Assembly (NCBI GenBank): GCA_000002445.1
Contig: CH464491.1
Span: forward strand, 3,136,001-3,200,000
Direction: 5' to 3'
Length of the DNA: 64,000 bases
Source of the DNA: Trypanosoma brucei
Taxonomy: Eukaryota
Below are positions 8,945-49,378 of this stretch, piece after piece. Position 1 is the first letter of the stretch, and each line of letters opens with the position of its first letter. Below the pieces are notes generated by a model. The model was not told the DNA's origin and ran no database searches. It was given only the letters and a program-made list of their open reading frames with translations. The translations under genes were made by a program, and so were the position numbers.

Positions 8945-9102
8945 ACGGCGAACAAAACACAGTCAATCAGACACCAAGCCATACGAGCATCAGGTAACTC
9001 CTAAGCGAGCCCTTCAACAGGAAAGAAGCAAAGTAACATTTTTCATCACTTGAAGGACTCCCTTCCAGTTATTGCAAGGTTAGTAAGCAGGTGTCGGTTC
9101 CT

Positions 9103-12807: not shown

Positions 12808-13173
12808 ATGGACCGGAGACTCATCGAAATGCAAGCCGTCATTACGCGGCGCGAAGCGGAGTTCCGGAAGCAAAACATGGACTTAATGACCGAGCTGATG
12901 GGTGACATGAGGAGTCAGGACAATCTGTTCGATAAGAATATGAAGGACCTGCAGTTCAGATTGAAGGGCCTGGAGAAGCAGAAGGCCGATATAATTAAAG
13001 CCGAGGATGAAGTTAAGGATAAACTGTCGAAGCTGAGTGCCGCACGCACCAAGCTTGCGGAACAGATGGCTGAAATGAAAGAGAAGATGGACGGCATTCG
13101 GAGGCAAAGGCCGAGCGGCTCGTTAACTGCGAGGGGGAAGAAACCCTCTAAGGAGCCATCTGTGGATATGTAA
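12808..13173 (+). CDS. Small coiled-coil protein, 121 aa. Copy 3 (inverted).
   Basis: Identical translation to 2597-2962. Confidence 0.4.
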   Translation: MDRRLIEMQAVITRREAEFRKQNMDLMTELMGDMRSQDNLFDKNMKDLQFRLKGLEKQKADIIKAEDEVKDKLSKLSAARTKLAEQMAEMKEKMDGIRRQRPSGSLTARGKKPSKEPSVDM

Positions 13174-13177
13174 AGTT

Positions 13178-13400
13178 GAGTGGAACAAGAATCGGAAAGA
13201 AGGAGATATGGGGTTTGGTAAAGGAGATGATGGTGTAAGGAATGNNNNNNNNNNNNNNNNNNNNNNNNNNNNNNNNNNNNNNNNNNNNNNNNNNNNNNNN
13301 NNNNNNNNNNNNNNNNNNNNNNNNNNNNNNNNNNNNNNNNNNNNGGAAGAAGAGATTGGGGTTTGGTTAAAGGAGATGATGTGTTGTTAAGGGAATGGCA
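13178..13400. repeat. Tandem repeat of an about 50-bp unit (ggaaRgaaggagatWtggggtttggt(t)aaaggagatgatg(g)tgtKtaagg(g)aatg). At least 2 copies spanning the N gap.
   Basis: One unit ends at 13244 and a second starts at 13345, with 100 N between them. Copy 1 and copy 2 have a single unit at the equivalent site (about 2526-2580). Confidence 0.7.
13245..13344. other. Assembly gap (100 N). Also a single ambiguous base at 13628.
   Basis: Run of exactly 100 n characters. Confidence 1.
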
Positions 13401-29537: not shown

Positions 29538-29930
29538 ATGTTCAACCAGTTTTCGAAGATGCCCTTGGAGCCTCCATACATTCGCAACGTATACATCGCG
29601 AGCCTTCCGCCCAACTACACCGAAGAAGAGCTCCGAGCGTTGTTTGCGCCGTTTGGTAAGATCGTCTCAACAGCGCTTGTACGGGATAAGGAGACAAAAC
29701 GCTGCAAGGGGTATGGGTTTGTGCTGATGGAGAGATACCAGGACGCATACAATGCTGTCATGGCTCTTCAGGGTCACACCGTTCAACACGCCCGTGTGCA
29801 AGTGCGATTGGCGCGCCCCGAAGCATCTGTGAAGAAGGCCGATCCGCTCTTGTACACTCAAGCGATGATGTGCGAGGTTGTGCAACCTGCGGTGTATGTT
29901 CTGTACCCACCGACGTGTATTACTGCTTAA
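29538..29930 (+). CDS. Single-RRM RNA-binding protein, 130 aa.
   Basis: RNP2 VYIASL and RNP1 KGYGFVLM. Paralog of the RRM in 35698-36351 (shared ...GYGFVL..., VQVRLA+PEASV). Confidence 0.7.
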   Translation: MFNQFSKMPLEPPYIRNVYIASLPPNYTEEELRALFAPFGKIVSTALVRDKETKRCKGYGFVLMERYQDAYNAVMALQGHTVQHARVQVRLARPEASVKKADPLLYTQAMMCEVVQPAVYVLYPPTCITA

Positions 29931-31377
29931 GCAGAGGGTGCGGAAAGTGGTTCCAGACGCCACAAATAAATAAGTATATTTAAATGTTAGTATATTGCAT
30001 TTTTTTTTTTACTTTCTGTTTTTTTTTTTCGTATGCTCTTGTGGGTGGCTCAGCATGTGTATGAAGTTCCGTCGTGCGCTAACATTGATTGGCTACCCAC
30101 CTCTATGCTTAAAGGACAACAATTAACCAAACGTTACAAGCAACTTTTTTTTTTATTATTATTATTTTAAATAACTTATATGAAACAACTTTTTTTAAAA
30201 AATGAGCTTATTCATCATTTGAGGTCACCCTCTTTCAACTCCTTAAAAAAAAAGATTATGAACCGCTGGGTTGTGCGGGGTGAAAAATAAACGACACCAT
30301 GAGCTGCAGAAGTACTAAGAAGAAAAGACACTAAGAGGTGTCAAGGTGGTGCACCGGTCACGAACTCGAATGAGGGCGAAGGTTGCACTCCAACATACTC
30401 TTGCACGCTACTGCTACGTTGGTGGTGCGGTTCTAATCTTCCAGAAAGATTACATCTTGTATATATATATATATATATATATTACTATTGTTGTTTCAAA
30501 CTGATGCAATCGTTACTTCTACTATCTTAATGCTTCCCTCTGAAGTGATCGGGAAGACCACGTGTACTCTGTTACCTTGAAGGTAGACCGGAAAGAAAAA
30601 GAAATTCAAAAAACAAATATGAAACGGATGGAGTATGGATGAGAGATAAAATCTGGGGAAAATGAAAAAAAAACACATAAAAAACCAGCGGAAGGGAATG
30701 GGAAGTGGGAAAAGTTATTATGGTAAGGAGTGAAATAGATTAAAGGGGGGGAAATAAATGAGTAACTGACCGTGGTAGGGGAGAAGGGTCGAAATGTGTT
30801 CGCATGTGAAAAAAGGGCATGTCAATGTCTTTTGGCATTCCCTTCCATTGTTATAAAAGAAATCGAGGGGGGGAAGGGGTTAAAAGGGGGGAGAAATTCA
30901 ACTGAAAAAAGAAATAATGATAGGTAAGTGTAAGCATTTAACAAGTACCATGGCATCAACCACTTTACTAGAGGAGAGCCTTCGTGGGTTTGTCGAACCA
31001 ATGAAAGTTGTAGTATGTGGGACCAAACAAGAGTAGAGGAAAGGGGGGGGGATGAAGAATGGTACACATAACTAGGAGGCTTTACGTACACATAAACCAA
31101 CAGTGAGTGAGTGCTTTTTATGTTACTACTTATCACTTTAGGAGGGAAATATTTTTCAAAGAGGAAAAGTTTCCAAGGGGTGGTGCGCTCCACGTACAAC
31201 CCCACAGTTTACTTGCTCCATAACTGCTTGCGGTTCCACTGCTTCGTGTGACCACTATTTTCATCTCTCGTACTTTTCTCTCTTGATGTTTACTCGCATA
31301 TCCATCTTTACCATTGGTGTGCTTGTTTGCGGGTGAGTGTGTGCTGAAAGGGAGGTGTCCAGCAACCATATAGGAAG

Positions 31378-35697: not shown

Positions 35698-36351
35698 ATG
35701 GCAGCTGTCACCCAGCAGGGGAATGACACCCGGAAGCTGCGATGCAATGTTTACGTAGCCAGCCTTCCATTAGATTTTGACGACGACCAACTCTTTGACC
35801 TTTTCTCCCCGTACGGCCGCATAAGCTCTGCGCGGATTATGCGATCGAAAGGAGCGCGACAATCCAGAGGCTACGGCTTTGTGTTATTTAGGCACGCCTC
35901 CTCCGCTGAAAAGGCGATTGACTCGTTGGTGGGTTACGTCATTGGTGGAAGCCGTATTCAAGTTCGACTGGCCCATCCGGAGGCCTCCGTTGCGTACAGC
36001 GGGCAGCGTGGATCCCGCAGTGGAAACTCAACGCCTGGTGCCCTTCCTGAAAAGACGTTACCGGCGGCCTCAGGAGTAATTACTCCACCACCACCGTCAT
36101 CTGCAATTATTTCGCACCCCAATGATTCTGGTATGATGGTTCAAACATACCCCATTACGACGATGTACCCAACTATGTACCCATCTGTCGTTCCGCAGAT
36201 AATCGCTCAACCTCAAGCACCCGTACCGGCTGCTATGCAGCAAGTTGTGTTTCTCCCGCAATACGCACAACAGTCAAACCAATCAACACCACCGACATTT
36301 TATATGATGGTACCAGACGCCATGCAGGCCGTTCCTCCTACGCTGTCGTAA
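35698..36351 (+). CDS. Single-RRM RNA-binding protein (about 217 aa from Met MAAVTQQ) with Q/P/M-rich C-terminal low-complexity tail.
   Basis: RNP2 VYVASL and RNP1 RGYGFVLF. Paralog of 29538-29930. C-terminus PQAPVPAAMQQVVFLPQYAQQ. Followed by a 9.7-kb ORF-free tract. Confidence 0.7.
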   Translation: MAAVTQQGNDTRKLRCNVYVASLPLDFDDDQLFDLFSPYGRISSARIMRSKGARQSRGYGFVLFRHASSAEKAIDSLVGYVIGGSRIQVRLAHPEASVAYSGQRGSRSGNSTPGALPEKTLPAASGVITPPPPSSAIISHPNDSGMMVQTYPITTMYPTMYPSVVPQIIAQPQAPVPAAMQQVVFLPQYAQQSNQSTPPTFYMMVPDAMQAVPPTLS

Positions 36352-39300
36352 AGGGAGGACTATCTGAAGTAGAAGGTCCCCTCCGTGTTATTACAATCGG
36401 GAATATCTCCACTTTCTTTCTTTCCTCTTTTTTCTTGCTTATTTTACTTCTTTTACCTTCCACCCATCTTTCCATTCACACCATTTTTTTTTTCCGCGCA
36501 TTTTTCTTTCTTCCTTCTCCTTGATTTTTTTTTTGTTGCTCTCCGTCTCTCAGGCAGAGTCTGGTGTAATCGGACCAATTTACGGTTAAAATCAGCCGAT
36601 GGGCGAGATGAAACACTTATGAACGACGTATGTTTATGTTCCTATATGAATTAATATATGCACATTTGCATTATTAAATTTCTTCTCTCCCGCACGCAGG
36701 CACGCACACACGTTGGGATGTGCATGTAGTTGTGAGGATGGTTCTTCCAAACCTTTAGGAACTGAGGGAGGGGGGAAATGATGCATTTTCTAAATATAAT
36801 TATGGGGATACATCCATACGATGTGACACGAGTGAAGAAGCAAAAGAGAGAGAGGGGGGAGGAAGGAAAAGAAAAAGAGAGAAAAGGAAACAAGAGGACA
36901 TACTCACACACATGCAAAACAACAACAACCACATTAAAAAAAAAAAGAAACGGTCATTCCGCCGTGTTTTTTTTTCTTTTCGCTTTTGTTGTGCGGCTGT
37001 TTCCAACAACTCCCTTCTGCTCCTCCTCCTCCTCCTCTAATTCCCTTTCTTTCCTTCCCCTCTTTCTTTTCCCTCTACTCCTCTTTCTTCTTGTTTTTGT
37101 TTCTATTTTGTTTCCATTTTTTTTTTCCTTTTTATGACTCATGCATATGTGTGATGAAAAAGAGGGGAAAGATATTAAATGATATATAATATATAATACT
37201 TTTGACGGAAGAGAAAAAGAAAGAACAACAACCTGTTGCACAAAGTGGCAACTTCTATTAATAAATAACAGCAAACCATTTAAGGAAGAGAGATGAAGTA
37301 AAAGCAAAGTAATAACAGTATAATAATATTGCTTTGAAACAAAGGAAGAAGGAAAGGAAGCAGAAACAACAAAGAGGGATTTGAGAATTGAGAAATACAG
37401 GTAACACTACTAGTGTTACTATTTTGTGATTACATGGCATATTTATTATATCTTTGCACATATCAGCAGCAGGCCACCTGCCTGTCTTTTTTTTTCTTTT
37501 TCTTTTTTCTTTTTTTTTGCTGCTGTCGTTGCTCTTTTTTTTTTCCCCCACTCCTCTTTTCTTTTTGTTTATATTATAATTTATTTATTTTTATACGCTC
37601 CGTTTCCTCTTTTTTATTGTCTGTTTTTTAAGAAAAAAAAATATAATGGAGTTAAATAAAGAAAGAGGAATGAAAGTGTTTGAGAAAATAAGGAACACGC
37701 GGATTTGGAGGAAATGAATGGATGAATGGAAAAAGGAGGAAAAGGAAAAAAAGGCAGGAAAAAACTGTCGCGTGAGTGTTAATTTTTTTTATTAAAAAAA
37801 AAAAGCAATCAAATAAATTAACAAAACTAAAAAAATTGTGTAATTGAGAGAAAAAGTATAAACAGATCCGTAATACCTGAAACTATCAATGGCGATAACC
37901 AAAAAACAACTTTTAAAAGGTCTCTCTTTTTCTTTTCTTCTTCTTCTTTTTTCTTTCTTTTTTTTTAAAAAAAAGGAGAGGAAAATAAGTGAAGTTAAAG
38001 GAGAGGAAAATAAGGAGAAGGAGAAGGAGGAGAGGAGGATGGGAGAAGGAGGAGGAAAAAAAAAAAAAAGAGACAGGAAGACGGGTTAAACAGTGGAAGA
38101 ATGGAAAAGGTTGTTTTTTTTTTTTTACTTTTTGCATAAATCGTGCCGATAATTAATTAATTTTTTTTTTCGTTTTAAAAAGAAAAAAAAATCAAACGCG
38201 GTGAATAAATGGGGATAGACGCAGAAAAAGTAAAAGTAAAAGATATAAATGACGTGTGTGCGTGTGTGTATGTGTGTATGAGGAAAGTAACAAGAAGTGG
38301 CAGGCAAAATTGTAAACAAATAAATAATTATAAATAAACGGAAAGAAGAAAGATAATAAAGAGGGAAGTGGAAAGCTGTCAAATGCACTCCCTTTTTTTA
38401 TTTTTATTTTTCTTTTTCCTGTTTTGTTTTACATGTATGCGTGGAATGCTTACTTCGCGCGGATAACTCTTTTTATCCTATCTCTCTCTCTTTTTTCTCC
38501 GTTTTTTTTTTACCTCCTTTTTGATATTATCATTATTATTAATACTATGATGATTGTCGTGACTATAATGATTATTATTTTTATGATTTAATAGCCAGCG
38601 GTCCTCACACTAAAATATGCGAAAAAAAAAAGCGTTAATAAGTAAGGAGGTAAATAAAAATTGAAAAAAAAGAAACAGACGAAAATCATAAAATGAAGGT
38701 AACAAAAAAAAAATGTACGAGGGAATGCCAACAACATCAGCACACACGCGCAAACAAAAAAAAACAGTTGGGGATATGTTTGTTTGTTTGTGTATGTGTT
38801 TGTGTGTGGGGGGGGAGGGAAGGGGAGAAGCAAATAGCGATCCCATTGCAAGTATATGACATCACCCATTTTCCTATAATAATAATAATTATTATTATTT
38901 GTATTTGTGTTTGTGTTTGTGCTTTTGTTCATTCCCTCGTTTTCCTACTTGCGTTTGTTCCTGTTCTTGTTCTTGCTTTTTTTTTCTTTTCTCATCTTTT
39001 CTACCTCCTCCTCCTCCTCCTCATTATTATTATTATTATTACCGAATTCTCTCTTCATTTTGTATGCGTGTATGCGTATGTATGCATGCGCCTCTATTTT
39101 AATGTTTGTGTTGAATTCAAATGAATTCACCCATGCCGTATTTGTGCCCCACCCCTTTTTATGCCGTGTGCTTGTATGAGTTCGTATAATTTTTTTTGTT
39201 TACATCCATATAAATATAAATTATATTTATATTTATACGCTTGCATTATTCCCAAAAGAAAAAAAAATGCCGTATTTATTTATGATATTCGTTTAACAAT

Positions 39301-40771
39301 GTGCTTGATTGTTTCAATTTCTTTCTCTTACTTTCCTCTGTGTGTGTGTGTTTGTGTTTCTTCAACTTTCTGCTAGTGGCTTCGCTCCTTTATTTTCTTC
39401 CTTTTATTTTTCTTCTTTTTTTTTGTTTTGTTTTCACTTCCACTTTTTATTTCATTGAATGTGTCCCTTTTTTTGGCAGGTAACATATGGGAATATTTAT
39501 TGGGAAATAAGAGAAGAACAAAAAAGTGGTGTAGAAAACATTATTGAAACCAAAAGGAGAAATTTAAAGTAACGAAAAAGAAGGAACGTGGAAAGCGAGT
39601 TAAAGGTATCACTTTTTAAAAATTTTTTTTTAAAAAAAGAAGAGGGAAAATGAAACAAAATATAAAATAAATCAGGTAAACAACAACAACAACATCATCA
39701 TCAAAAAAAAAGCAACATTAAACAAAGAGGGAGATAAAGAAGGGGGAGAAAAGAGGAGGTTCAATGAAGAATTATGAGCATTTTTTCCTTTTTTTAAAAA
39801 AAAGACCTAAAATCTTCTTTAAAATTTTACTTTCATTCATTTTTTTTTACTTTTTTCTTTTCTAAATAGCAGTGTGGAAAAATCAGTGCACATATTTTTC
39901 GAATTGTTTCAAAGTGAAGACAGCAAAAAAAGAGAGAAAGGAAATATTCTAAAAAGAAGAGATAATAAGAAAAAAATGAAAAAAGGAAGGATATAGTGCC
40001 TGATGTGCTCACCGAAATCGACCAAGTAATAATAATAATAATGAAAATAATCCGAATATGAAGATGACATATTAAATATTAAATATTAAAAAAAAATATA
40101 TATATATATCTTTACAGTGACTATTCCTCTTTTCCCCCTCCCTTCTTACTACTTCGAAACAACAACAACAACAACAAAGAAAAACACTCTGTGGAAACAG
40201 GAAGAAGAAAAAAAGAAACACACGTACTGCAACACATGGAAATGTTCAGAAGAACAAATCATATAAACATATATTTATTTATTTAAAATATTGTTAGTAA
40301 CATGAGCGTAAACACACAAGCGAATGGTTAAAAGGCAATGATGATAACACAGTAGGAAATGAAGCAAATGTGTAGGCGTACCCATGCTATAAAGAGGGAA
40401 AGTAAAAGTGATGATTTTGCTCTTTTGTCTTTTGTCTTTTGTCTTTTTTGTTTTCTTTTTGTCTTTTTTGTTTTGTGAGTGTGTGTGTTGTTAAACAAAT
40501 TATAAAATAAAGCAGATGCGGCGAAAAAAAAAATGGGAAGAATGAAAGAAAGGAATATATATATATATATATATATTTATGTTTATTTATGTTTATGCTC
40601 ATACATCTGAGAACGGGTGGAAAAGGGATTACAAATGGTGGCATCGAGTATTTTTCAAAGCAGGAGGCAAATTGCGGGAAGAAGAAGGGATATGAGGGGG
40701 TGGGTTTGCGGAGAAATTTGTGTGTATATATGTGCTAAAAAAGACAAAAACAAGAACAAAAAACTGCAAAT

Positions 40772-40822
<51 letters not shown>

Positions 40823-43800
40823 TTATTTATTTATATCTATGTTTCAATATTTTCGCATATTTATATGTGACCTTGATCTCTCTGAGTTTATTCTGTGTAT
40901 ACAATTAGCATATGTATATTATATGTTAGTTTGCTGGCTTAACTCGCTTCGTTTATATTTGTAACTTTCCTCTTTTGTTTGTTTGTTTGTTGCGGAAGGG
41001 AATTTGACTGGACGTGTCCGTCTTTTTGTTTTTGTTTGCAACTGTTCTTTTTTGTGTGTTTCTTATTTAATTACTTTTTGACTGTGTATTTGTGTGGATA
41101 TTTATACGCAAATATCTATATCTATATATATGTATTTATATACATATGAACTTATATGAGTATAAATATAAATTTGAATGAGAATGAATAGACACGAAAA
41201 GAGCCATTATGTTGAAGTAAGTAAGCCGAACCCAGATGAAATTATATAGGGTGAGAAGGGTTGGAAATAATAATAATAATAATAATAATATATATATATA
41301 TATATATAATCATGGATGTGAGCTCAGTGTTGTTGTTGTTATAATGATTATTTTCTTTTGCCCTCATGCAAATGCTGACGGACTCGAACACGTGGGGACC
41401 ACCACATCGTCTTACTTTCCCTTCCTCTTTTTTTTTTGTTTTCTCCTTCTTATATGTTTTTTTGTTTTAATTCTAATTGGCTCGTTGCGTTTTGTTTGGT
41501 TGAGCTATTTTCGACACGAACCCGCTATGGTAGTTTTTTTTTGTTACTCTGTTTCTGCCTACTTGGTTACGTTAACTTTTTTCTTTTTTCTTTTTTCTTT
41601 TTTTCCATTTGTTTCTTCGCATGGAGGTGAGTATTCATGAAAAGTGATGGAGAGTAATTTAGAGGAAGCGAAGGGGAAGAAAAGAGCGGAGGGGGAAAAA
41701 AAAAAGGATTGTTTTGGGAGAGAAAGGGGAGAAATAAAAAAAGTTGTTGCTGTTGTTATTGTTATTAAAAAAAAAAACAAAAACAAGAGAGGTTTTAATT
41801 AGAGCGAGGAAAGAGAAAGGTGAAGGAAAGAAGGAAAGGGGGGAGGGAAAAAGTTTGTATTGGCGGTGGGATTTGAGGTGCAACGGATCCGAAATCACGG
41901 AACAATTACATTTAATCTCATTTCTCTGCGGTCATGTTGAGCCGTAAGGAACCCTCGCATACGGGAACCTTCACCATTTTCTTTTTATATTTTTCTCTTT
42001 CTTTTTTTTCTTTTTTCTTTTTTTTTTAAAAAAACATGGAGATGACATTGGATAACAAAACAAATACGCCCATATTTAAATATTTACATATTTATGCAAC
42101 TGTTAATTCATTAAAAGGTGGAGGGGAGGGAATGAACAGAACCAACAATGATGGGGGAAGGGGTTTAACAATGAATAAGTGAAACAGTGGATCAAGTGAA
42201 AATTATTGTATTTATGTTTTATATTAATATAAATACAAATTTAAACGAATTTGAATAAATAACTGAATTTAAGCAATATAATAAATCTATATACGGACAT
42301 GTAGAGTTGCACTTTTTTTTTTTAATTTGAAAGGTTATGAAATTAAAAACAGTTGCGACTGCTTCAGCAAATGAGGAATGTTTCCGTTTCTAAGTGTCAA
42401 TGTCCGTGTGAGTGGCTGAGAGGACGAAAAATATGAATAATATGACAAAAATAGAAGAAGCACAATCGAAGAGACAAACAGAAAAAAAGAAGCATAACGA
42501 AGAATATATAAGCCACGTAAAATATTTAAATGAAATAAAACAAAATGAGGAAGCACTATATTGGACACACAATGAGAAACAGCGGAAGTAATGACAAAAT
42601 TCACTCTTCCCCTCCTTTTATTATTATTATTGTTATTGTTATTATCTTAGTTTCCTCCCTTTTTTTTTTAACATTTGTGACGTGGCGTTTCTTTATTTAC
42701 GTTTTTGGTGGGTTCGTTACCACCGCTCTTCTCGGTGCATGTGTATATGTATATGCTTGCTCACTTTTTTCCCTTGTTTTTTAATATTAATCATATTATT
42801 ATTATTACAATCATATCCCTTGGTTCCATCTACAACCTTTCGTGGGGCAGATATTTATGTCCCCTATATTCCTTTCTCTTTTAAAAAAAAATCTTTATTT
42901 ATTTGATCTGGTTCTTTTTTCCTCTTTATATATATATATATATATTAACGAAACTACTTTTGTTTTTTTAAATTTTTTTACTATTACGGCACAAGCGAGT
43001 GAATCCTCACCCAAAACGGCGGGGAAGGAGCATCAACTTGTGAGGTTCCTCATGAAAAATATAAATATTGCATGCGGATACCAAACTTGCCGATGCTTAC
43101 ACGCATTAAAAAAGAAGGTTTCGTTTTGTATTTTTGAAAAAAAAAACAAAGAAGGAAAAGGAAAGATACATATATATATAAATATGAATGCAAAGAGAAA
43201 ATTAATAGACAAGGAGAGGGGCGTAACTCGAGCTTCCTTCAAGTGTTTTTCCTTTTCATTTTATCAATATTATTTTATTTATCTTTTCTCGGTGTTGTTC
43301 TTCTTTTATCTTTTCTTCTATCCTTTTCACGTGACACTATTTCCTTTGGTTGAAACTAACGAATAATATACGCCTGTGCATAAGCGATGGTGAGTGACTA
43401 AATGAATAAATAAATAAATGCTCTTTTGAATAAATGGAGGGAATATTTAAGACTCAGAAACGTAAGTTACGAGGAGGAAGGAGGAAAAAGGGACGAGAGG
43501 TGTCTTTCCTTCTTTATTTTTGCCTTTTATTGTGTGCACTTTTGCTACTCCTCGTTGCCGCATTTCCGTTCTTCCGTAACGGGGGGGGGGAAAAAAAAAG
43601 GAATTGTGCGTTTGGTAAAGAAATGAAGGTATAGAAGCGGCTTCCGCTTGTCCCCGCATGTCCTCGTGCATGTTTAAAGCCGCGCTCTTCCCTCCATTCG
43701 TGCTGATGAGTATTTGTTCATAAATATGAGAGGAAATATATATATATATATATTTATAGGTATATATTTACTTGACTTCTCTTTTCCTCTTTTTTTAATT

Positions 43801-46044
43801 ATTGTAAACTTTTATATTTATGTACATGCACATTAAGAGCGCACCCTAATGTCGTATTGCGGTGATGATTCACCGTTGTTACCCATCATCATGGCCAAAG
43901 TAATAATTATATATATATATATTATTGCATTCTCATTATGGTGCCCTTTTTCTTCCCTTTCCCTTTCTACTTACCTTCTTTGTTATCATAATTATTAAAA
44001 CTGTACGTACTTTACCTCAATTAAGCAATAATGGTAACCGAAAGTAGAAGAAGAAAAGGAAAAAAAAGGATGCGGAAGGATAATTACGCACAACACTTTA
44101 ATTATTATTATTATTATTACATTATTATTACTATTATTATTGTTTGTTCCTTTGTGTACTTCCTTGCCACTTATACGCGTACCTTTCATTGCTTTGGCAC
44201 TGATCATATGAATTAAATTTAAGGATTTTAATTATGGTGATGATTGTTGTTATTAAAAAAAAACAATAATAACTATTATTTTATATTGTGCCTTTACTCG
44301 TTGCAACCATCATACCCTCGTGGATTGCATTGTTTCGTTGGCGTGGAGGTAACAAACCACATAAACGAGCCAAATGACTGCACATATAGCGGAAGGAAAT
44401 AAAACAAAGGAGAAAGTAAAGCAAATTAAAAAAAAGAGGGAGCGAGAAGGATTTAAAAGAAACATTTTTTTTTCTTAAAGATGAGTCGACTTCTACCATT
44501 CGTGTTTATCGATCCATATTTGTATATGTTTATTTATTTATTTGTATATACGAAAAGAAGATAAGGAATGGGGGAAAAGAGGCATGAAGAAGTGAGAAGA
44601 GGATGAGGAAGAGAAGGAAATAAAAGAAAAGAAAAGAAAAAAAAAGCGATAGAAAACAGAAAGAAAAAGGAAAAAGAAAAAAAAATGAAGAAAAGAGAAC
44701 AAGGTGCTGGTGTGCCGCGTACTTGAAATTCACACTGTTCCCGTTCTTTCACATCGAAGTTGGGAAACCAATAAAACAAGAGGTATAAATCATATCATAA
44801 TTATTACTGTTTGGAGATGACTTTCTTTTCTTTTCTTTTTGTTTTTCTCTTTTTTTTTTTTTTACCCCTCTCCCATTCAGCTTTTCTTTTGTGTACCTTT
44901 TCTTTACAGCACTCTGTGTTTCAACCGACCGGATAATGGAGACCAGCAAAAACAACCACAAAATGCGAGTAAAACCAGAGCAGCAAGAAAAGAAGCGAAA
45001 AAGACAGCGCCCATTTATGGGTTTATTTACTTTAAAATTAAAATATATATATATATATATATTATACTCACATATTTGTGTGGTGACGAAGGTAAGGAAA
45101 GGGGAAATTATTGCAAGTTGTTTATATGAAACTGGCAAACAAAAACTCTTTTTCTATCTTTTTTTTTTAAAAAAAAGAAAAAGAGAAGAGGGGAGAGGAG
45201 AGGAGAGGAGGATTTCAAAAAAAAAAAAGAAGCAAGTGCGTGTGCGCACGGATGGCTGGACGGACTTTAACACATGGTGCAACACGATTTGATTTTCAGT
45301 TTGCTTTTCATTTTCTTCGATCCGACAGATAACTGCTCCGTGGGAATGACTTGCTCTCTTTTTTTTTTTAATTATTATTATAATTATTATGATTTCGTTT
45401 CGTAAATGATTTCCACTTTCCCAGTCCCTGCTGCACTTCATATCCGCGCAACATTTTCTTTGTTTTGTTTTGCTTATTCTTACCCTTCTTGTTATCTTTG
45501 TTTTTTTTAAAATTATTGCTTATTTATATTAGTTTCTATAGGGAATAGTCATATAATTTAGTTGTTTGAGACTGTGAGTCACAAGGCAGCGCCGCTTGAA
45601 CTTTCCAGCATATTGAGATGAGGAACCTGCAGACCCACACATGAAAGGGGTAATATGATTCTTTTTTTAAAAAAAAATATATAAATATATTCTGCTTTTC
45701 ATCCAAGAATAATAATAATGAAAAAGAAAGGTGCAATCCTTTTTGTTTTCAAGGAAAGGTCAGTCAATTTTTCCTCTCTTTCTTTTTCGGTTTCTTCGTG
45801 TGCCTGTTTGTTTTTTATATTGTTGTTTTCACACCAGTTAACAAGGGCTTTGTGCTCCGCAAAGTTAGCATCATAAAGTAAGGCGATAGAATACAAAAGA
45901 AAAAAAAGCTCCATCAAGAAAAGAGCGGGAGGAAAAAAAAAGAAAAATTATACACCGAAGATATATAGAAAGGGGCCATAAGCCTCGCATATAGCAACAA
46001 ACAAGGAGGACAGACAAAAGGAAAAAAAAAGGGAGGACCAGGAT
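36352..46044. repeat. About 9.7-kb ORF-free low-complexity tract. Alternating polypyrimidine and polypurine blocks with (TA)n, (ATT)n, (CCT)n and (CTTTTGT)n microsatellites and homopolymer runs.
   Basis: All ORFs in this interval on the track are translations of simple repeats (poly-F/L/K/S). Strand composition flips every 100-400 bp. Located between two plus-strand genes. Confidence 0.85.
40775..40818. repeat. (AT)22 microsatellite.
   Basis: Direct inspection. Confidence 0.95.
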
Positions 46045-47808
46045 ATGGCGTTTCTCGTACAAGTAGCAGCGGATATATTCAATAATAAAGTGAACTTTGA
46101 GCTTAGCTTCCCGTCCAGACCCAGCATATCGGAACTGACGCGTTCGGCGGAAACTGCTTTCTCAAATGAAATTTCTCTTCGCCGACCGGACAATGTGCCA
46201 TCGCACAAATTTCATTCATCGAAGATCAAAATGTACGATGAGGAGCTCAACAAATGGGTGGATCTAATAAGGGAGGACCAGTTAACGGATTATTGTCAGC
46301 TTTATGTTTTCCAACCTCCAAATGAATGGCACAAGGAAAGCCAAAAGGAAATCCCCCCTGCAATGAAGCCACCGAGTTCCGGCCAACGACACTCCGCAGG
46401 TGGTTCCTTTTCACAGGGCTCACGTGTCACTCCTAATGGAAGCCTTTCCATGCAGGGGGCTCTCGCACCGTACAACGGGTCTCGCTCACCCGTTAGCCAC
46501 CGCAGTGAGTCGCAACAGGCTCGTCACGCTTCGTTCCACGGGAGTACCTCAAATGCGCTCGTGCCGCGTGCCCAGACAGATGTGTCGCAAGAAGAAAAAC
46601 TGCGTGTGCTATTCGCGGAACTCGATGTAAAGGGTAACCGTGTGCTCGACGTTGAGGACTTCCGACACGGTTTCACTGTGTTTAATCTCAACTTCAGCCC
46701 AGCTACGGTGGACGATCTCTTTGAAAAGGGTGACAGCAACCGGGACGGGCGGATTACCTTTTCAGAATTTGAGCGGTTCGGACGGCTCTATCCAATCATG
46801 ACGGATTGCCTCTATTTCCGTTCCAGGGCTTTTTGGGAAGAAGAACAAATCAGGCGCTCTATTCAAAATGAGCGACAGGCAGTGAGACAAGCGGAGCAAG
46901 CGGTGGAGCAGGCCCGACGAGCCCTTGAGGAGGCAGAAAATGAGACAGATGCCGCTAAGGATGCCGTCGCAACTGCGGATGCGGATCTCAAGGATCGAAC
47001 GGACCGTCTGCGGGACCTCACGAGGGACATGGACAACGCAAAGCGCGAGAAGGAGCGGGCCATCCGCGAGAAGAAGGATCGCGAGAAGGAACTCTTCGAG
47101 ATTCGTGAGCGTGAAAAGGAGCTTCGGAAAGACGCACAAGAGGTGGCTCGTGAGGCTGAGAAGCAGGACCGACGGGCGTTTTCTCTCGCTGGGGAAGCGA
47201 GTGCTGCCGATGACAAGGTTCGTGCCTTGGAGAAGGCCCTTGACGAGGCTCGTCGTGCCGCTGAGCGGGCGCACAACGCCGCAGATCAGGCTGCCAGAGA
47301 CGCTGATATCGTGAAACTCCGCATGCAAGATGCTACACGAGATGCCGAGGAGGTGGCACGGGAGGTTCCCCGGGCGGAGGACGCGGTGCGGGCCGCAGAG
47401 CACAACGTATCAGCAGCAGATCAAGGGGCTCGGGAACTGGAAGGAATGGGCCGTGTGCTTTCGCGGGAGATAGAAGAGGCTGGGCAGCGACGGGATCAGA
47501 GCGAAAAGGCAGTTGAGGAGGCGAGAGGTATGATGCATGTGAAAGAGCGTCAGTTGGAGGAAGCAAAACAGCACGTTTCGGAGAGGGAACACGCCGTAAG
47601 GCTTAAGGAAATCGAACTGGCTGATCAGCTGAAGCAGCGTGAACTCGTGTCACAGCACGAGAGGACACTTATAGAGCAGGAGCTTCGGCTACGCGAACAA
47701 AGAGACAGTTTAGAGGAGCGGGAGACGAAATTGATGTCAGAAGCCAGCAGCTTCCTGGGCAATCTCCGTACGCAGTTACACGGTGGGAGGTCCTATCCGC
47801 GAGATTAA
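46045..47808 (+). CDS. EF-hand calcium-binding protein with long Ala/Arg/Glu/Asp-rich coiled coil, 587 aa.
   Basis: Two EF-hand-like loops (DVKGNRVLDVEDF, DSNRDGRITFSEFE) followed by about 300 aa of EAxRxAExA-type charged heptads. Confidence 0.6.
   Translation: MAFLVQVAADIFNNKVNFELSFPSRPSISELTRSAETAFSNEISLRRPDNVPSHKFHSSKIKMYDEELNKWVDLIREDQLTDYCQLYVFQPPNEWHKESQKEIPPAMKPPSSGQRHSAGGSFSQGSRVTPNGSLSMQGALAPYNGSRSPVSHRSESQQARHASFHGSTSNALVPRAQTDVSQEEKLRVLFAELDVKGNRVLDVEDFRHGFTVFNLNFSPATVDDLFEKGDSNRDGRITFSEFERFGRLYPIMTDCLYFRSRAFWEEEQIRRSIQNERQAVRQAEQAVEQARRALEEAENETDAAKDAVATADADLKDRTDRLRDLTRDMDNAKREKERAIREKKDREKELFEIREREKELRKDAQEVAREAEKQDRRAFSLAGEASAADDKVRALEKALDEARRAAERAHNAADQAARDADIVKLRMQDATRDAEEVAREVPRAEDAVRAAEHNVSAADQGARELEGMGRVLSREIEEAGQRRDQSEKAVEEARGMMHVKERQLEEAKQHVSEREHAVRLKEIELADQLKQRELVSQHERTLIEQELRLREQRDSLEERETKLMSEASSFLGNLRTQLHGGRSYPRD

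Positions 47809-48381: not shown

Positions 48382-48426
<45 letters not shown>
48382..48426. repeat. (TA)n microsatellite, about 45 bp.
   Basis: Direct inspection. Generates a spurious ORF at 48220-48585. Confidence 0.95.
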
Positions 48427-48748: not shown

Positions 48749-49378
48749 TTGCATACGGAGAACACGACACAGGCAATGCGGCGTAGTCCTTGTGCTGATT
48801 ACTTCACATCTCTAATGGCAACCGCCGGTTTTGTTCGATGCCGCGGTTTGAGTTCTAGCGGCCAAACAAACACCACACAAACTGTACACGTTCTCCATAG
48901 CCTATACCGTCGGTTGCGGAAGGAAGGTGAGGAACGAAAGATGCTGGAGGATGCCCTCTCCGTTAACCAACTCGAGACGAACATTCGTATCGGATTACGT
49001 CTTTTGCATTGCCACACACAGCTGGTGGATTTGAACAGACAGCTGAAGGAGTTACCCTTTTGGCGGCTAGTGAGGCGAATGTCACTTGCTGTTGCACGCC
49101 GTTATTATGCCTGGCGAATTTTTTCTATCCGGCTTCGATTGCGTAGCACAACGGCGATTAGCAACGCCCTGGTGTACACGCTCTTCCTAGTGGTTTGCTT
49201 TATGCTCTACGAGATCTATTGCGTTTGCCGCATTGGGGTGACGCGAGCGGAGGATCGGTACAAATCATTAGCCGTCCCGATAGTACAGACGTTTGAAGCC
49301 CTCGAGGAGGCGGCACGGCGACGAAAAGACATCTTGTTGAAGGAAATGGAGGGGGATATAGTTCGGCAAAGGAATTAG
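48749..49378 (+). CDS. Hypothetical protein, up to 209 aa. One predicted TM segment (LVYTLFLVVCFMLYEIY).
   Basis: ORF with non-repetitive composition in the plus-strand gene array. The start codon is uncertain (alternative Met at MATAGFV). Confidence 0.35.
   Translation: MHTENTTQAMRRSPCADYFTSLMATAGFVRCRGLSSSGQTNTTQTVHVLHSLYRRLRKEGEERKMLEDALSVNQLETNIRIGLRLLHCHTQLVDLNRQLKELPFWRLVRRMSLAVARRYYAWRIFSIRLRLRSTTAISNALVYTLFLVVCFMLYEIYCVCRIGVTRAEDRYKSLAVPIVQTFEALEEAARRRKDILLKEMEGDIVRQRN

What the first reader, a model, noticed from the sequence alone, without database searches (positions are those of the whole stretch)
36352..46044. About 9.7-kb low-complexity gene desert inside a polycistronic unit, immediately downstream of an RRM-protein gene
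Typical trypanosomatid intergenic regions are 0.3-2 kb. Here about 9.7 kb separates the stop of the RRM gene (36351) from the next ORF (46045). Nothing in it looks coding. It consists of alternating polypyrimidine and polypurine blocks of 100-400 bp that are prone to H-DNA/triplex formation, plus microsatellites ((AT)22, (ATT)n, (CCT)6(ATT)6 at about 39001-39040, (CTTTTGT)n at about 40421-40470). One hypothesis is an exceptionally long 3-prime UTR of the upstream RNA-binding-protein gene. Very long regulatory 3-prime UTRs (several kb) are known for trypanosome RBP, zinc-finger and kinase mRNAs; RBP10 in T. brucei is a documented example with a UTR of about 7 kb. Alternatives are a nest of small non-coding RNAs (snoRNA cluster) or a centromere- or retroelement-graveyard-like region.
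Basis: partly seen in the sequence, partly recalled or inferred. Interest (0 to 1): 0.65.

Follow-up and report, generated by a model that had tools for sequence, protein, structure and literature searches.

The report
Long regulatory tail of RBP9 gene

Summary
Window 36352-46044 is 9,693 nt with GC 0.32, 23 times the median gene spacing in the window. It has no coding potential and no Pfam, Rfam, tRNA or C/D-box signal. It holds 63 pure purine or pyrimidine tracts of at least 15 nt, against about 2 in shuffles, and 8 (AT)n repeats.

The upstream gene is RBP9 (Tb927.11.12120), which is bloodstream-specific. The downstream gene is BILBO1.

It is probably not one uniform UTR. The TREU927 annotation places two 'hypothetical' ORFs in it (Tb927.11.12130 and Tb927.11.12140), each with its own UTR. 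Both look non-coding. Published read counts put them at about 20-25% of the RBP9 coding-region density, and 12130 shows RBP9's bloodstream bias.

The gene-free interval is syntenic across trypanosomatids: T. vivax 8.2 kb, Leishmania over 20 kb. Leishmania and stercorarian trypanosomes keep a third RRM paralogue in it. T. brucei and T. vivax lack it, with no remnant.

The RBP10 motif UAUUUUUU is absent from the sense strand, where 4-10 copies are expected.

The snoRNA, centromere and retroelement readings are not supported. I did no direct transcript mapping. Interest is low to moderate.

The parts
35698..36351 (+). RBP9 (Tb927.11.12120) coding sequence, 217 aa with a single RRM. This is the gene whose mRNA the interval most likely belongs to.
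   Evidence: Pfam RRM_1, E = 3e-18. It is 100% identical to P0001 (T. b. equiperdum 'RNA-binding protein'). A member of the same 90% cluster is named 'RBP9 [T. b. gambiense DAL972]' / Q382W9_TRYB2.
36352..46044 (+). Gene-free, low-complexity interval. The proposed reading is an RBP9 3'-UTR plus alternatively processed UTR-derived segments, ending in the BILBO1 5'-UTR.
   Evidence: GC 0.32. 63 purine/pyrimidine tracts of at least 15 nt, against about 2 in shuffles. No coding potential. No Rfam, tRNA, C/D-box or complex-repeat signal.
36404..36544 (+). First polypyrimidine tracts (58 + 48 nt), starting only 52 nt after the RBP9 stop codon, with an AG at 36552. This is a strong-looking but presumably unused or masked trans-splicing signal.
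   Evidence: Polypyrimidine/AG scan and the sequence itself. That it is masked is inference from the DRBD18 model.
37919..38046 (+). A pyrimidine tract directly abutting a purine tract. It can fold into a hairpin with a stem of about 55 bp. It is one of four such U-rich/A-rich junctions; the others are at 37607, 42005 and 45147.
   Evidence: Repeat family D6. RNA fold MFE -45.9 kcal/mol, but z = -1.9 only. Weak sub-threshold miRNA-like Rfam hits are explained by this hairpin.
39004..39041 (+). (CCT)6(ATT)6 compound microsatellite.
   Evidence: TRF rows 39004-39022 and 39023-39041, 100% matches.
40415..40476 (+). (TTTTGTC)~9 repeat that doubles as a 55-nt polypyrimidine-rich tract.
   Evidence: TRF period 7, 8.9 copies. 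Polypyrimidine scan.
40555..45062 (+). Cluster of (AU)n repeats: (AT)11 at 40555, (AT)22 at 40775, (AT)10 at 41288, (TA)9 at 42927, (AT)9 at 43736, (TA)7 at 43908 and (AT)10 at 45043. A further (AT)7 lies at 40096.
   Evidence: Regex scan: 8 of the window's 11 (AT) repeats of at least 7 units lie in the interval. An (AU) repeat was needed for bloodstream expression from an RBP10 3'-UTR fragment (PMC8982893). Poly(AU) and polypurine tracts are enriched in ZC3H28-bound long 3'-UTRs (PMC10090614).
42857..43366 (+). ORF annotated in TREU927 as Tb927.11.12130, 'hypothetical protein', 510 nt. I judge it non-coding.
   Evidence: Length 510 and name from Fadda et al. file 5. The coordinates were mapped from the 3'-UTR start 3246498 with offset 3203132. 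Codon score -0.21, GC3 0.31. Junk-like translation. No Pfam hit. An exact look-up of the 174-aa GTG-start version of this ORF (42842-43366) found it in no other assembly.
43367..44427 (+). Annotated 3'-UTR of Tb927.11.12130. It ends at a poly(A) site in an A-rich stretch.
   Evidence: UTR_Start/End 3246498-3247558 in Trenaman et al. Supplementary Data 1. Conversion to window coordinates is good to about 1 nt.
44818..44880 (+). 61-nt polypyrimidine tract with an AG at 44879. It is the likely spliced-leader acceptor of the Tb927.11.12140 RNA.
   Evidence: Polypyrimidine/AG scan. Actual use of the site is inferred from its position upstream of the annotated ORF.
44936..45292 (+). ORF annotated as Tb927.11.12140 (118 aa), with an annotated 3'-UTR running to about 45396. 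I judge it non-coding.
   Evidence: 3'-UTR 3248424-3248527. Codon score -0.17, GC3 0.39. No Pfam hit.
44509..46249 (+). Genomic fragment scored 'increased' in the positive arm of a published massively parallel UTR reporter screen (peak_4315).
   Evidence: Trenaman et al. Supplementary Data 1: fragment 3247641-3249381, log2FC 4.43, FDR 0.052, contains a downstream splice site. The neighbouring fragment, window about 42902-44228, was not enriched.
45764..45837 (+). Last polypyrimidine tract, with an AG at 45836. It is a candidate BILBO1 spliced-leader acceptor, so the final stretch of about 200 nt is probably BILBO1 5'-UTR.
   Evidence: Polypyrimidine/AG scan. Inference only.
46045..47808 (+). 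BILBO1 coding sequence (587 aa), the downstream boundary gene.
   Evidence: Pfam BILBO1_N + EF-hand. Orthologues are syntenic in all species examined.

Best explanation
The interval is the extended 3' region of the RBP9 (Tb927.11.12120) mRNA of Trypanosoma brucei. It lies inside a + strand polycistronic unit.

Proposed mechanism (inferred unless marked otherwise):
- RNA polymerase II reads through the whole interval.
- The 34 sense-strand polypyrimidine tracts are potential trans-splicing/polyadenylation signals.
- Most are normally ignored, plausibly because they are masked by DRBD18-type proteins. RBP9 mRNAs therefore carry multi-kb 3'-UTRs, about 6 kb up to the Tb927.11.12130 processing site, with a minority reading further.
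- Occasional use of internal sites releases spliced-leader-capped, polyadenylated RNAs that contain only UTR sequence. These have been annotated as the 'hypothetical' genes Tb927.11.12130 and Tb927.11.12140.
- The dense, redundant purine tracts, pyrimidine tracts and (AU)n repeats act as low-specificity binding platforms for many RNA-binding proteins. They keep RBP9 mRNA scarce and give bloodstream-form-specific stability and translation.
- Avoidance of the RBP10 destruction motif UAUUUUUU lets the mRNA survive in bloodstream forms, where RBP10 is present.

Shown here: the interval's anatomy and composition, the absence of genes and known RNA families, the synteny, and the motif depletion.

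Taken from the literature: RBP9's stage specificity, the internal annotated UTR ends, the read counts over the internal ORFs (with a bloodstream bias for 12130), and the existence and behaviour of this class of UTR.

Inferred: continuity with the RBP9 CDS, the masking, and the regulatory role.
For: - Identity: the RRM gene is RBP9.
- Stage specificity: its mRNA is 7 to more than 10 times higher in bloodstream forms (PMC5413900; PMC8312216). Ribosome-profiling bloodstream/procyclic ratios are 159 and 241, similar to RBP10's 197 and 576 (PMC6597758 Table S1).
- Composition: 63 purine/pyrimidine tracts of at least 15 nt against about 2 in shuffles, which is 6.5 per kb against 0.8-4.8 in the other intergenic regions over 400 nt. 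The count of [AG]9 windows is 68 per kb and of [CT]9 windows 56 per kb, against 21 and 30 in other intergenic DNA. The interval holds 8 (AT) repeats of at least 7 units.
- Known class: this is the signature published for 44 bloodstream up-translated mRNAs with 3'-UTRs over 2 kb, enriched for mRNA-binding proteins and kinases (PMC11405848).
- Related published cases: the RBP10 7.3-kb UTR carries functional (AU)n repeats and redundant regulatory fragments (PMC8982893). ZC3H28 binds long 3'-UTRs with poly(AU) and polypurine tracts.
- Read counts (Fadda et al.). In bloodstream t0II, read density over 12130 is 23% and over 12140 is 20% of the RBP9 CDS density.
- Stage bias in the same data. The bloodstream/procyclic raw ratio is 11.7 for RBP9 and 9.4 for 12130, against 2.2 for the helicase and 2.05 for BILBO1.
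- Processing model: DRBD18 depletion produces shortened mRNAs plus trans-spliced, polyadenylated RNAs made only of downstream 3'-UTR sequence (PMC9380746 abstract). That is the same kind of RNA as the annotated 12130 and 12140 transcripts.
- Reporter screen: a fragment at window about 44509-46249 was a positive hit.
- Motif depletion: UAUUUUUU occurs 0 times on the sense strand despite 56 U runs of at least 6 nt. Markov models of order 1-5 expect 4.3-10.4, with P(0) at most 0.016. The antisense strand has 3.
- Synteny: the gene-free interval after the RBP9 orthologue is conserved. It is 8,244 nt in T. vivax with no gene, 10,283 nt in L. tarentolae, and 23,434 nt from RBP9 to BILBO1 in L. martiniquensis. 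Leishmania-to-Leishmania alignment is collinear with an offset under 60 nt after 5.7 kb.
Against: - I have no direct transcript map. Continuity of the RBP9 CDS with distal parts of the interval is inferred from ORF-level read counts, and independent co-regulated RNAs would give the same counts.
- The TREU927 annotation gives 12130 and 12140 their own UTRs, and spliced-leader tags map to 12130. At least the last 3.5 kb can therefore exist as separate RNAs.
- Read density over the distal ORFs is only 20-29% of the CDS density, so most RBP9 mRNAs probably end earlier.
- I found no published RBP9 northern blot or UTR length.
- Primary sequence is not conserved between T. brucei and T. vivax, T. 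theileri, T. cruzi or Leishmania beyond low-complexity matches.
- Between T. brucei subspecies the interval diverges faster than other intergenic DNA: 15.9 against 10.5 substitutions per kb. Any constraint therefore acts on composition and length, not on specific sequence.
- RBP9 RNAi had no growth phenotype (PMC8312216), so strong selection on its regulation is not self-evident.
Confidence: 0.6

Rival explanations
1. The interval is mainly a set of independent non-coding RNAs rather than a UTR. RBP9 mRNA ends early. The rest is cut at internal polypyrimidine/AG sites into spliced-leader-capped, polyadenylated RNAs without ORFs, including the RNAs annotated as Tb927.11.12130 and 12140. These have their own functions or none.
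For: - The interval has 34 sense-strand polypyrimidine tracts with downstream AGs, the first only 52 nt after the RBP9 stop.
- Separate 3'-UTR ends are annotated at about 44427 and about 45396.
- Spliced-leader tags are assigned to 12130, with alternative upstream sites (PMC4453557).
- Distal read density is only 20-29% of the RBP9 CDS.
- Such processed ORF-less intergenic RNAs are a documented outcome of dual processing signals (PMC6597758 section 3.2).
Against: - The bloodstream/procyclic ratio of 12130 tracks RBP9 (9.4 against 11.7) and not the neighbours (about 2.1).
- The composition is that of the long bloodstream-regulated UTR class.
- The sense-strand absence of the RBP10 motif across the whole 9.7 kb suggests the whole region is under the same bloodstream-survival constraint.
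- No structured RNA family was found.
- This rival overlaps with the main explanation. The difference lies in the proportion of each kind of RNA.
Confidence: 0.2
2. The interval is largely neutral leftover DNA. The ancestral locus held a third RRM paralogue between RBP9 and BILBO1. Salivarian trypanosomes lost it, and its former UTRs and spacers decayed into low-complexity sequence that is transcribed only because it sits inside a polycistronic unit.
For: - A third RRM gene ('RBP5-like') lies in the interval in T. theileri (328-aa ORF; 303 aa as annotated) and L. tarentolae (299 aa).
- Homologues of about 280-310 aa occur in T. melophagium, T. rangeli, T. conorhini, other Leishmania, Porcisia and Novymonas. 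Adjacent locus tags place those of L. orientalis and Porcisia in the same interval.
- It is absent from T. brucei and T. vivax.
- The interval evolves faster than other intergenic DNA, with many indels, and shows no cross-species sequence conservation.
Against: - No remnant of the lost CDS is detectable even with a profile HMM run with --max.
- In T. theileri, which keeps the gene, the two flanking spacers are only 2.3 and 2.7 kb. Loss alone therefore does not give 9.7 kb.
- In Leishmania each RRM gene is itself followed by at least 10 kb without genes. Long downstream regions are thus a property of these genes, not a product of the loss.
- T. vivax and T. brucei both keep more than 8 kb.
- The RBP10-motif depletion is strand-specific.
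Confidence: 0.1
3. The interval is a chromatin or chromosome-biology feature inside the transcription unit: a head-to-tail termination/re-initiation site (H2A.Z, base J, H3.V), a replication origin, or a centromere-like region.
For: It is about 10 kb, AT-rich and gene-free, and its position is conserved across species. Purine·pyrimidine tracts can form non-B DNA (established knowledge).
Against: - There is no tandem satellite array; the longest TRF period is 26 nt.
- There are no complex dispersed repeats and no retroelement ORFs, and no tRNA or snRNA genes.
- The G+T fraction is 0.48-0.58, with no GT-rich signature such as is seen at kb 15-16 beside the window's real strand-switch region.
- All flanking genes are on the same strand.
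- Reads over internal ORFs are present at 20-25% of the RBP9 coding-region density, with RBP9's stage bias for 12130.
- No ChIP data were available to me.
Confidence: 0.05
4. The interval is a cluster of small RNAs (C/D or H/ACA snoRNAs), or a graveyard of ingi/RIME/SIDER-type retroelements.
For: None beyond the lack of protein-coding genes.
Against: - Rfam at gathering threshold gives 0 hits in the whole window.
- At E up to 1, only sub-threshold miRNA-like hits caused by pyrimidine/purine hairpins appear, plus one snoR125 hit at 21 bits against a 100-bit cut-off.
- There are 0 C-box...D-box candidates on either strand.
- There are no tandem units of snoRNA-cluster size.
- There is no Pfam reverse transcriptase or endonuclease hit in the longest ORFs.
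- Only low-complexity repeat families were found.
- Limits: trypanosome snoRNAs are poorly covered by Rfam, and very degraded retroelements could escape an ORF-level Pfam search.
Confidence: 0.02

Closest known systems
RBP10 (Tb927.8.2780) 7.3-kb 3'-UTR of T. brucei
   Same: - Both lie downstream of a single-RRM, bloodstream-specific repressor gene.
- Both are multi-kb and low-complexity, and contain several (AU)n repeats, poly(A)/purine tracts and many internal polypyrimidine tracts.
- Both genes show very high bloodstream/procyclic ribosome-profiling ratios: 159 and 241 for RBP9, 197 and 576 for RBP10.
   Different: - The RBP10 UTR has been mapped by northern blot and dissected into at least six independently regulating fragments. 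For RBP9 nothing comparable was found in the literature I searched, and continuity is unproven.
- The RBP9 interval is longer (9.7 kb to the next CDS).
- It carries two annotated internal 'genes'.
- RBP9 depletion gave no growth phenotype.
[quoted passage not shown] 2024, PMC11405848)
   Same: - The length is over 2 kb.
- Both A-rich purine tracts and U-rich pyrimidine tracts are dense.
- The gene encodes an mRNA-binding protein and is strongly up-translated in bloodstream forms.
- One fragment from the interval was a positive hit in that paper's screen.
   Different: - I used simple run-length proxies, not the paper's FIMO motifs.
- RBP9 is not named in the paper's main text.
- In the stored, truncated table, the hit fragment is assigned to Tb927.11.12140 rather than to RBP9.
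DRBD18-dependent long 3'-UTRs with cryptic internal processing sites (Bishola Tshitenge & Clayton 2022, PMC9380746)
   Same: - There are many internal polypyrimidine tracts.
- Trans-spliced, polyadenylated RNAs made only of UTR sequence exist. This is how I interpret Tb927.11.12130 and 12140.
   Different: - RBP9 appears in that paper's main text only in the reference list.
- Its supplementary lists were not available, so DRBD18 dependence of this locus is untested.
Orthologous intervals downstream of RBP9-like genes in other trypanosomatids
   Same: - Gene order is the same: PEX11, PIG-L, HhH-GPD, RBP5, DEAH/RWD helicase, RBP9, a long gap, then BILBO1.
- The gap is gene-free, has lower GC than the CDS and is enriched in purine/pyrimidine tracts.
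   Different: - Primary sequence is not alignable outside a genus.
- Leishmaniinae and stercorarian trypanosomes have a third RRM paralogue in the gap.
- Leishmania gaps are twice as long, over 20 kb in total.

Membership tests
Long purine/pyrimidine-tract-rich 3'-UTR of a bloodstream up-translated mRNA (PMC11405848) | The sequence is part of the mature mRNA, contiguous with the upstream CDS up to a poly(A) site. | tested here: inconclusive
   The evidence is indirect. Published ORF read counts put 12130 and 12140 at 20-23% of the RBP9 CDS density, and 12130 shows the same bloodstream bias. Internal UTR ends and spliced-leader tags are also annotated. No transcript-end data could be read with these tools.
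Long purine/pyrimidine-tract-rich 3'-UTR of a bloodstream up-translated mRNA (PMC11405848) | Length over 2 kb. | tested here: met
   The distance to the next CDS is 9,693 nt. The distance to the first annotated internal ORF, whose upstream polypyrimidine tracts are at 42599-42783, is about 6.1-6.4 kb.
Long purine/pyrimidine-tract-rich 3'-UTR of a bloodstream up-translated mRNA (PMC11405848) | [quoted passage not shown] | tested here: met
   This used a proxy, not the paper's FIMO matrices. The count of 9-nt all-purine windows is 68 per kb and of all-pyrimidine windows 56 per kb. Other intergenic DNA in the window has 21 and 30, and CDS has 9 and 4. There are 63 tracts of at least 15 nt against about 2 in shuffles.
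Long purine/pyrimidine-tract-rich 3'-UTR of a bloodstream up-translated mRNA (PMC11405848) | The gene is more than 3-fold up-translated in bloodstream forms, and the class is enriched for mRNA-binding proteins and kinases. | tested here: met
   This comes from the literature, not from computation. RBP9 ribosome-profiling bloodstream/procyclic ratios are 159 and 241 (PMC6597758 Table S1). The protein has an RRM.
snoRNA gene cluster | C/D or H/ACA box architecture, Rfam family matches, and usually tandemly reiterated units. | tested here: not met
   Rfam gives 0 hits at gathering threshold and nothing credible at E up to 1. There are 0 C...D candidates. No tandem unit exceeds 26 nt.
T. brucei centromere | Tens of kb of AT-rich satellite arrays of about 147 bp, flanked by degenerate retroelements, typically at a strand-switch region (from my own knowledge of the literature). 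| tested here: not met
   There is no satellite array and no retroelement ORFs. The interval is only 9.7 kb. It has nearly the same length (9,665 nt) in a second assembly, T. b. gambiense. It lies inside a co-directional gene array.
Retroelement graveyard (ingi/RIME/DIRE/SIDER) | Recognisable reverse-transcriptase or endonuclease remnants, or dispersed complex repeat copies. | tested here: not met
   The ten longest ORFs have no Pfam hit above threshold. Only low-complexity repeat families were found.
Protein-coding genes Tb927.11.12130 and Tb927.11.12140 (as annotated in TREU927) | Codon usage and GC3 like real T. brucei genes, plus conservation or a domain. | tested here: not met
   Codon log-odds are -0.21 and -0.17, against -0.004 to +0.14 for 15 real genes. 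GC3 is 0.31 and 0.39, against 0.45-0.62. There is no Pfam hit. T. b. gambiense annotates different small ORFs at other positions. T. vivax annotates none.
RBP10-target (procyclic-specific) 3'-UTR | Presence of UA(U)6 motifs (PMC5568443; 'verified target sequence UAUUUUUU'). | tested here: not met
   There are 0 occurrences on the sense strand in 9,693 nt, where 4-10 are expected. This fits a bloodstream-expressed mRNA.

The most novel reading that the evidence does not exclude
The interval is more than an ordinary long UTR. It would be an ancient, pan-trypanosomatid non-coding domain, 8 to over 20 kb, tied to a cluster of paralogous RRM genes (RBP5, RBP9 and a third paralogue). Its length and purine/pyrimidine/(AU)n composition, not its sequence, would be maintained. 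Its processed products, the spliced-leader-capped UTR-only RNAs now mis-annotated as Tb927.11.12130 and 12140, would act in their own right. They might titrate low-specificity RNA-binding proteins, possibly RBP9 itself, or control neighbouring genes in cis.
Probability: 0.1. Interest if true: 0.6.

Novelty: new member of a known kind. Interest (0 to 1): 0.28.

Why it matters
If correct, RBP9 would have one of the longest 3' regions in the T. brucei genome. The median 3'-UTR is about 400 nt (PMC6597758), and the best-studied long case, RBP10, is 7.3 kb.

RBP9 would therefore be a second natural test case for three open questions:
- why regulators in an organism without gene-specific promoters carry enormous low-complexity UTRs;
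- how dozens of internal polypyrimidine tracts are kept from acting as processing signals;
- whether length and composition, rather than specific sequence, is what selection maintains.

The cross-species series gives a ready comparative framework: 2-3 kb spacers in T. theileri, 8-10 kb in African trypanosomes, and at least 10 kb after each paralogue in Leishmania.

In practice, the result flags Tb927.11.12130 and Tb927.11.12140 as probable non-coding annotation artefacts. It also records the loss of a third RRM paralogue in salivarian trypanosomes.

None of this overturns current understanding.

Tried and rejected
- Six-frame Pfam scan of the whole interval. I replaced it with a scan of the ten longest ORFs.
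- Exact-protein look-up of the 174-aa desert ORF in public assemblies, hoping for RNA-seq-derived contigs that end in spliced leader or poly(A). The ORF is not on record.
- T. congolense RBP9 look-up. It is not on record. Only the adjacent locus tags TCIL3000_11_12740 and 12750 suggest there is no gene between them.
- Supplement searches for RBP9 UTR lengths or poly(A) sites, in PMC8312216, PMC9380746, PMC11260167 (no files held) and PMC8982893 (no mention). No RBP9 northern blot was found.
- Sensitive blastn of the interval against the T. vivax, T. cruzi, T. theileri and L. tarentolae loci. Only short, non-collinear low-complexity matches appeared.
- Search for a decayed remnant of the third RRM paralogue, using tblastn and a profile HMM run with --max. 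None was found.
- RNA folding of pyrimidine/purine junctions. Long hairpins are possible (-45.9 kcal/mol at 37915-38050), but z-scores run from -1.9 to -3.2 at best and are near 0 for others. This shows structural potential, not evidence of a structured RNA.
- Internal GT-rich promoter idea. The G+T fraction is not elevated.
- Logan contigs carrying RBP9 orthologues. They turned out to be genomic, not transcripts.
- The T. cruzi gap length (3,649 nt) is unreliable, because 2.4 kb of it is N.

Full report
**What is there**

The window is from chromosome 11 of a Trypanosoma brucei-group parasite. From about 19.7 kb to 64 kb all convincing genes are on the + strand.

Around the finding the gene order is:
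- PEX11, an unknown gene, PIG-L and HhH-GPD
- a 130-aa RRM protein at 29538-29930, which is RBP5 (Tb927.11.12100)
- a 1,299-aa DEAH/RWD helicase
- a 217-aa RRM protein with its ATG at 35698 and stop at 36351
- the empty interval
- BILBO1 at 46045-47808, then a 588-aa unknown protein and a kinesin

The RRM protein is 100% identical to a T. b. equiperdum 'RNA-binding protein' (P0001). A member of the same 90% cluster is named RBP9 in T. b. gambiense, also listed as Q382W9_TRYB2. It is therefore Tb927.11.12120.

**Checking the observation**

- The interval 36352-46044 is 9,693 nt. Its GC content is 0.32, against about 0.5 in the flanking genes.
- The other 13 CDS-to-CDS spacings in the window run from 63 to 2,436 nt, with a median of 420. 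The published median T. brucei 3'-UTR is about 400 nt (PMC6597758).
- Purine-only and pyrimidine-only tracts of at least 15 nt number 34 and 29, and cover 14.5% of the interval. 200 dinucleotide shuffles give means of 1.2 and 0.7.
- In 100-nt windows there are 35 alternating purine-rich and pyrimidine-rich blocks of 100-200 nt, covering 48% of the interval.
- Eight of the window's eleven (AT) repeats of at least 7 units lie here.
The only correction is that the blocks are 100-200 nt rather than up to 400 nt.

**Is anything encoded?**

- No ATG ORF of at least 100 aa in the interval resembles a T. brucei gene. Codon log-odds for all ATG ORFs of at least 60 aa are -0.78 to +0.01, against -0.004 to +0.14 for 15 real genes scored leave-one-out. 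GC3 is 0.24-0.43, against 0.45-0.62.
- The ten longest ORFs have no Pfam match above threshold.
- Rfam at gathering thresholds finds nothing in the whole window, and ARAGORN finds no tRNA.
- At E up to 1 the only Rfam hits are far-sub-threshold plant and animal miRNA models, which land on pyrimidine-tract/purine-tract hairpins, plus one snoRNA model at 21 bits against a 100-bit cut-off.
- A C-box...D-box scan finds no candidate on either strand.
- Repeat searches find only low-complexity families. There is no satellite and no dispersed complex repeat.
- The snoRNA-cluster, centromere and retroelement-graveyard alternatives therefore have no support.

**What public annotation and data say**

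The T. b. gambiense record has two small gene calls in the interval, one of 137 aa on the + strand and one of 102 aa on the - strand. TREU927 has two different ones.

I converted TREU927 v5.1 coordinates to window coordinates with offset 3,203,132. The offset is anchored on the RBP5 3'-UTR start and is consistent to 1 nt.
- Tb927.11.12130 is the 510-nt ORF at 42857-43366, with an annotated 3'-UTR running to about 44427.
- Tb927.11.12140 is the ORF at 44936-45292, with a 3'-UTR running to about 45396.
- The RRM1 paper reports spliced-leader tags for 12130, including upstream alternative sites.
- Processed RNAs therefore arise from the distal part of the interval. The two annotations disagree, and the translations look like junk. 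I read these as non-coding RNAs, not genes.

Fadda et al. give ORF-level read counts from rRNA-depleted total RNA.

| Feature | Bloodstream (t0II) reads | Procyclic (first column) reads | Bloodstream/procyclic ratio |
|---|---|---|---|
| RBP9 (654 nt) | 1089 | 93 | 11.7 |
| Tb927.11.12130 (510 nt) | 197 | 21 | 9.4 |
| Tb927.11.12140 (357 nt) | 119 | not listed | - |
| Helicase | 6713 | 3089 | 2.2 |
| BILBO1 | 4629 | 2263 | 2.05 |

- Per nucleotide, the distal ORFs sit at 20-23% of the RBP9 CDS density in bloodstream forms. 12130 sits at 29% in procyclic forms.
- The distal RNA from 12130 therefore shares RBP9's stage bias and not that of its neighbours.
- I did not view the column header of the procyclic sheet. 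I inferred it from the sample list and the number of columns.

RBP9 itself is strongly stage-regulated.
- Its mRNA is 7 to more than 10 times higher in bloodstream forms.
- Its ribosome-profiling bloodstream/procyclic ratios are 159 and 241, comparable to RBP10's.

**Fit to a known class**

- Clayton's review notes that many RNA-binding-protein and kinase mRNAs have 3'-UTRs of several kb.
- Trenaman et al. 2024 define a cohort of bloodstream up-translated mRNAs with 3'-UTRs over 2 kb that are dense in both A-rich purine and U-rich pyrimidine tracts. The cohort is enriched for mRNA-binding proteins.
- By a run-length proxy the interval has 68 purine and 56 pyrimidine 9-mers per kb. Other intergenic DNA in the window has 21 and 30.
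- In the stored part of that paper's screen table, a fragment at window about 44509-46249 is a positive hit (log2FC 4.4, FDR 0.052). The neighbouring fragment at about 42902-44228 is not.
- The RBP10 7.3-kb UTR contains at least six independently regulating fragments. It also has (AU)8-11 repeats, one of which was needed for bloodstream expression.
- ZC3H28 prefers long 3'-UTRs with poly(AU) and polypurine tracts.
- DRBD18 depletion shortens more than 200 long-UTR mRNAs and yields trans-spliced, polyadenylated RNAs made only of downstream UTR sequence. DRBD18-bound mRNAs are rich in polypyrimidine motifs.
- The interval has 34 sense-strand polypyrimidine tracts. The first begins 52 nt after the RBP9 stop codon. 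A masking mechanism of this kind is therefore needed if any long UTR is made.

**A sequence-level hint of selection on the sense RNA**

- RBP10 destroys mRNAs that carry UAUUUUUU in bloodstream forms (comment field; PMC5568443).
- The interval has 56 U runs of at least 6 nt, and none is preceded by UA.
- Markov models of order 1-5 predict 4.3-10.4 motifs, with P(0) at most 0.016. The antisense strand has 3.
- This is suggestive, at about the 1% level, that the whole interval is exposed as sense RNA in cells that express RBP10.

**Comparative evidence**

Gene order is conserved in every species examined. The distances from RBP9 to BILBO1 are:
- T. b. gambiense: 9,665 nt.
- T. vivax: 8,244 nt, with no gene called.
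- T. theileri: 6,019 nt.
- T. cruzi: 3,649 nt, but 2.4 kb of this is N.
- L. martiniquensis: 23,434 nt, with no gene called in the 10 kb on either side.
- L. tarentolae: 10,283 nt from the RBP9 orthologue to a further gene, then at least 10,000 nt more without genes.

That further gene is a third RRM paralogue, annotated 'RBP5-like'.
- It is a 328-aa ORF in T. theileri (annotated as 303 aa) and 299 aa in L. tarentolae, where I located it inside the interval.
- Homologues of about 280-310 aa are present in T. melophagium, T. rangeli, T. conorhini, other Leishmania, Porcisia and Novymonas. Adjacent locus tags place the L. orientalis and Porcisia copies in the same interval.
- It is absent from the T. 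brucei and T. vivax intervals. A profile HMM run with --max finds no remnant.
- Adjacent locus tags suggest T. congolense also lacks it.
- Salivarian trypanosomes therefore probably lost this gene.

Three further points bear on whether the long gap is functional.
- The loss does not explain the length. T. theileri's two spacers are only 2.3 and 2.7 kb, while each Leishmania paralogue has at least 10 kb behind it.
- Primary sequence does not align across genera. Within Leishmania, short islands align collinearly, with an offset under 60 nt after 5.7 kb.
- Between T. brucei subspecies the interval changes faster than other intergenic DNA: 15.9 against 10.5 substitutions per kb, with many microsatellite indels.
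- What is conserved is therefore a long, gene-free, tract-rich region downstream of these RRM genes, not its sequence.

**Interpretation**

The best-supported reading (confidence about 0.6) is that the interval is the extended, alternatively processed 3' region of RBP9 mRNA.
- It would be a multi-kb UTR of about 6 kb up to the processing sites in front of 12130, with some molecules extending further.
- It would also contain UTR-derived processed RNAs, and the BILBO1 5'-UTR at the far end.
- Its redundant purine, pyrimidine and (AU)n tracts would provide stage-specific control and low abundance.

Which steps are shown and which are not:
- Shown here: the interval's structure and composition, the absence of genes and known RNA families, the synteny, and the motif depletion.
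- From the literature: RBP9's stage specificity, the internal annotated UTR ends, the read counts over the internal ORFs (with a bloodstream bias for 12130), and the behaviour of the UTR class.
- Inferred: physical continuity with the RBP9 CDS, masking of internal signals, and the regulatory role.

The main rival (about 0.2) is that RBP9 mRNA ends early and the rest is a set of independent non-coding RNAs. This differs from the main reading mostly in proportions. Lesser rivals are neutral DNA left after the paralogue was lost (about 0.1) and a chromatin boundary, origin or centromere (about 0.05). For the last, there is no GT-rich signature, no satellite and no tRNA.

**Verdict**

The feature is an extreme but unsurprising member of a known class. 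RBP9's 3' region itself appears not to have been dissected in the literature I could search. Interest is low to moderate (0.28).

The useful by-products are:
- the pan-trypanosomatid conservation of the long gap;
- the loss of a third RRM paralogue in salivarian trypanosomes;
- the strand-specific absence of the RBP10 motif;
- the probable mis-annotation of Tb927.11.12130 and Tb927.11.12140 as genes.

Noticed in passing
window 1-15000: There is a large perfect inverted repeat. Arms 7750-9670 and 11302-13222 are 100% complementary with a 1,631-nt spacer, and further arms lie at 1005-2561 and 13357-14915. There is also a 5,202-nt direct duplication. Small 121-aa coiled-coil-like ORFs are mirrored on both strands: 2597-2962 and 7799-8164 on the - strand, 12808-13173 on the + strand. 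GC skew changes sign at about 9-11 kb. It looks like a divergent strand-switch region with mirrored duplicated genes. The 100% arm identity suggests gene conversion or an assembly artefact.
   Followed up: partly
L006 13017-14003 (T. theileri); L012 10001-10900 (L. tarentolae): A third RRM paralogue ('RBP5-like', about 300 aa) sits between RBP9 and BILBO1 in T. theileri and L. tarentolae. Homologues occur in T. melophagium, T. rangeli, T. conorhini, other Leishmania, Porcisia and Novymonas. It is missing, without a remnant, from T. brucei and T. vivax, which implies loss in salivarian trypanosomes.
   Followed up: yes
L010 10739-20738, L011 1-10000 (L. martiniquensis); L007 and L012 (L. tarentolae): In Leishmania the RBP9-like gene and the third paralogue are each followed by at least 10 kb with no called gene. 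The distance from RBP9 to BILBO1 is 23.4 kb in L. martiniquensis. That is unusually long even for Leishmania, and the two species are collinear.
   Followed up: partly
window 29931-31377: The RBP5 (Tb927.11.12100) 3' region is 1.4 kb and contains an (AT)11 repeat at 30460-30481. Its published 3'-UTR contains an AU-rich instability element that responds to a DHH1 mutant (PMC4705827). RBP5 and RBP9 are paralogous RRM genes that flank a DEAH/RWD helicase gene.
   Followed up: no
window 48382-48425: A second (AT)22 repeat lies in the 2.4-kb region downstream of BILBO1. That region also contains a 209-aa TTG-start ORF (48749-49378) with no Pfam match.
   Followed up: no
window 15000-16000: The G+T fraction on the + strand peaks at 0.61-0.64 just downstream of the strand-switch region. 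This fits the GT-rich transcription-start signature described for T. brucei (from my own knowledge of the literature), and the desert lacks it.
   Followed up: no
L003 7097-9676 vs L004 5774-9676 (T. vivax): The helicase orthologue is called as 859 aa in one T. vivax assembly and 1,300 aa in another. This is probably an annotation or assembly difference and not biology.
   Followed up: no
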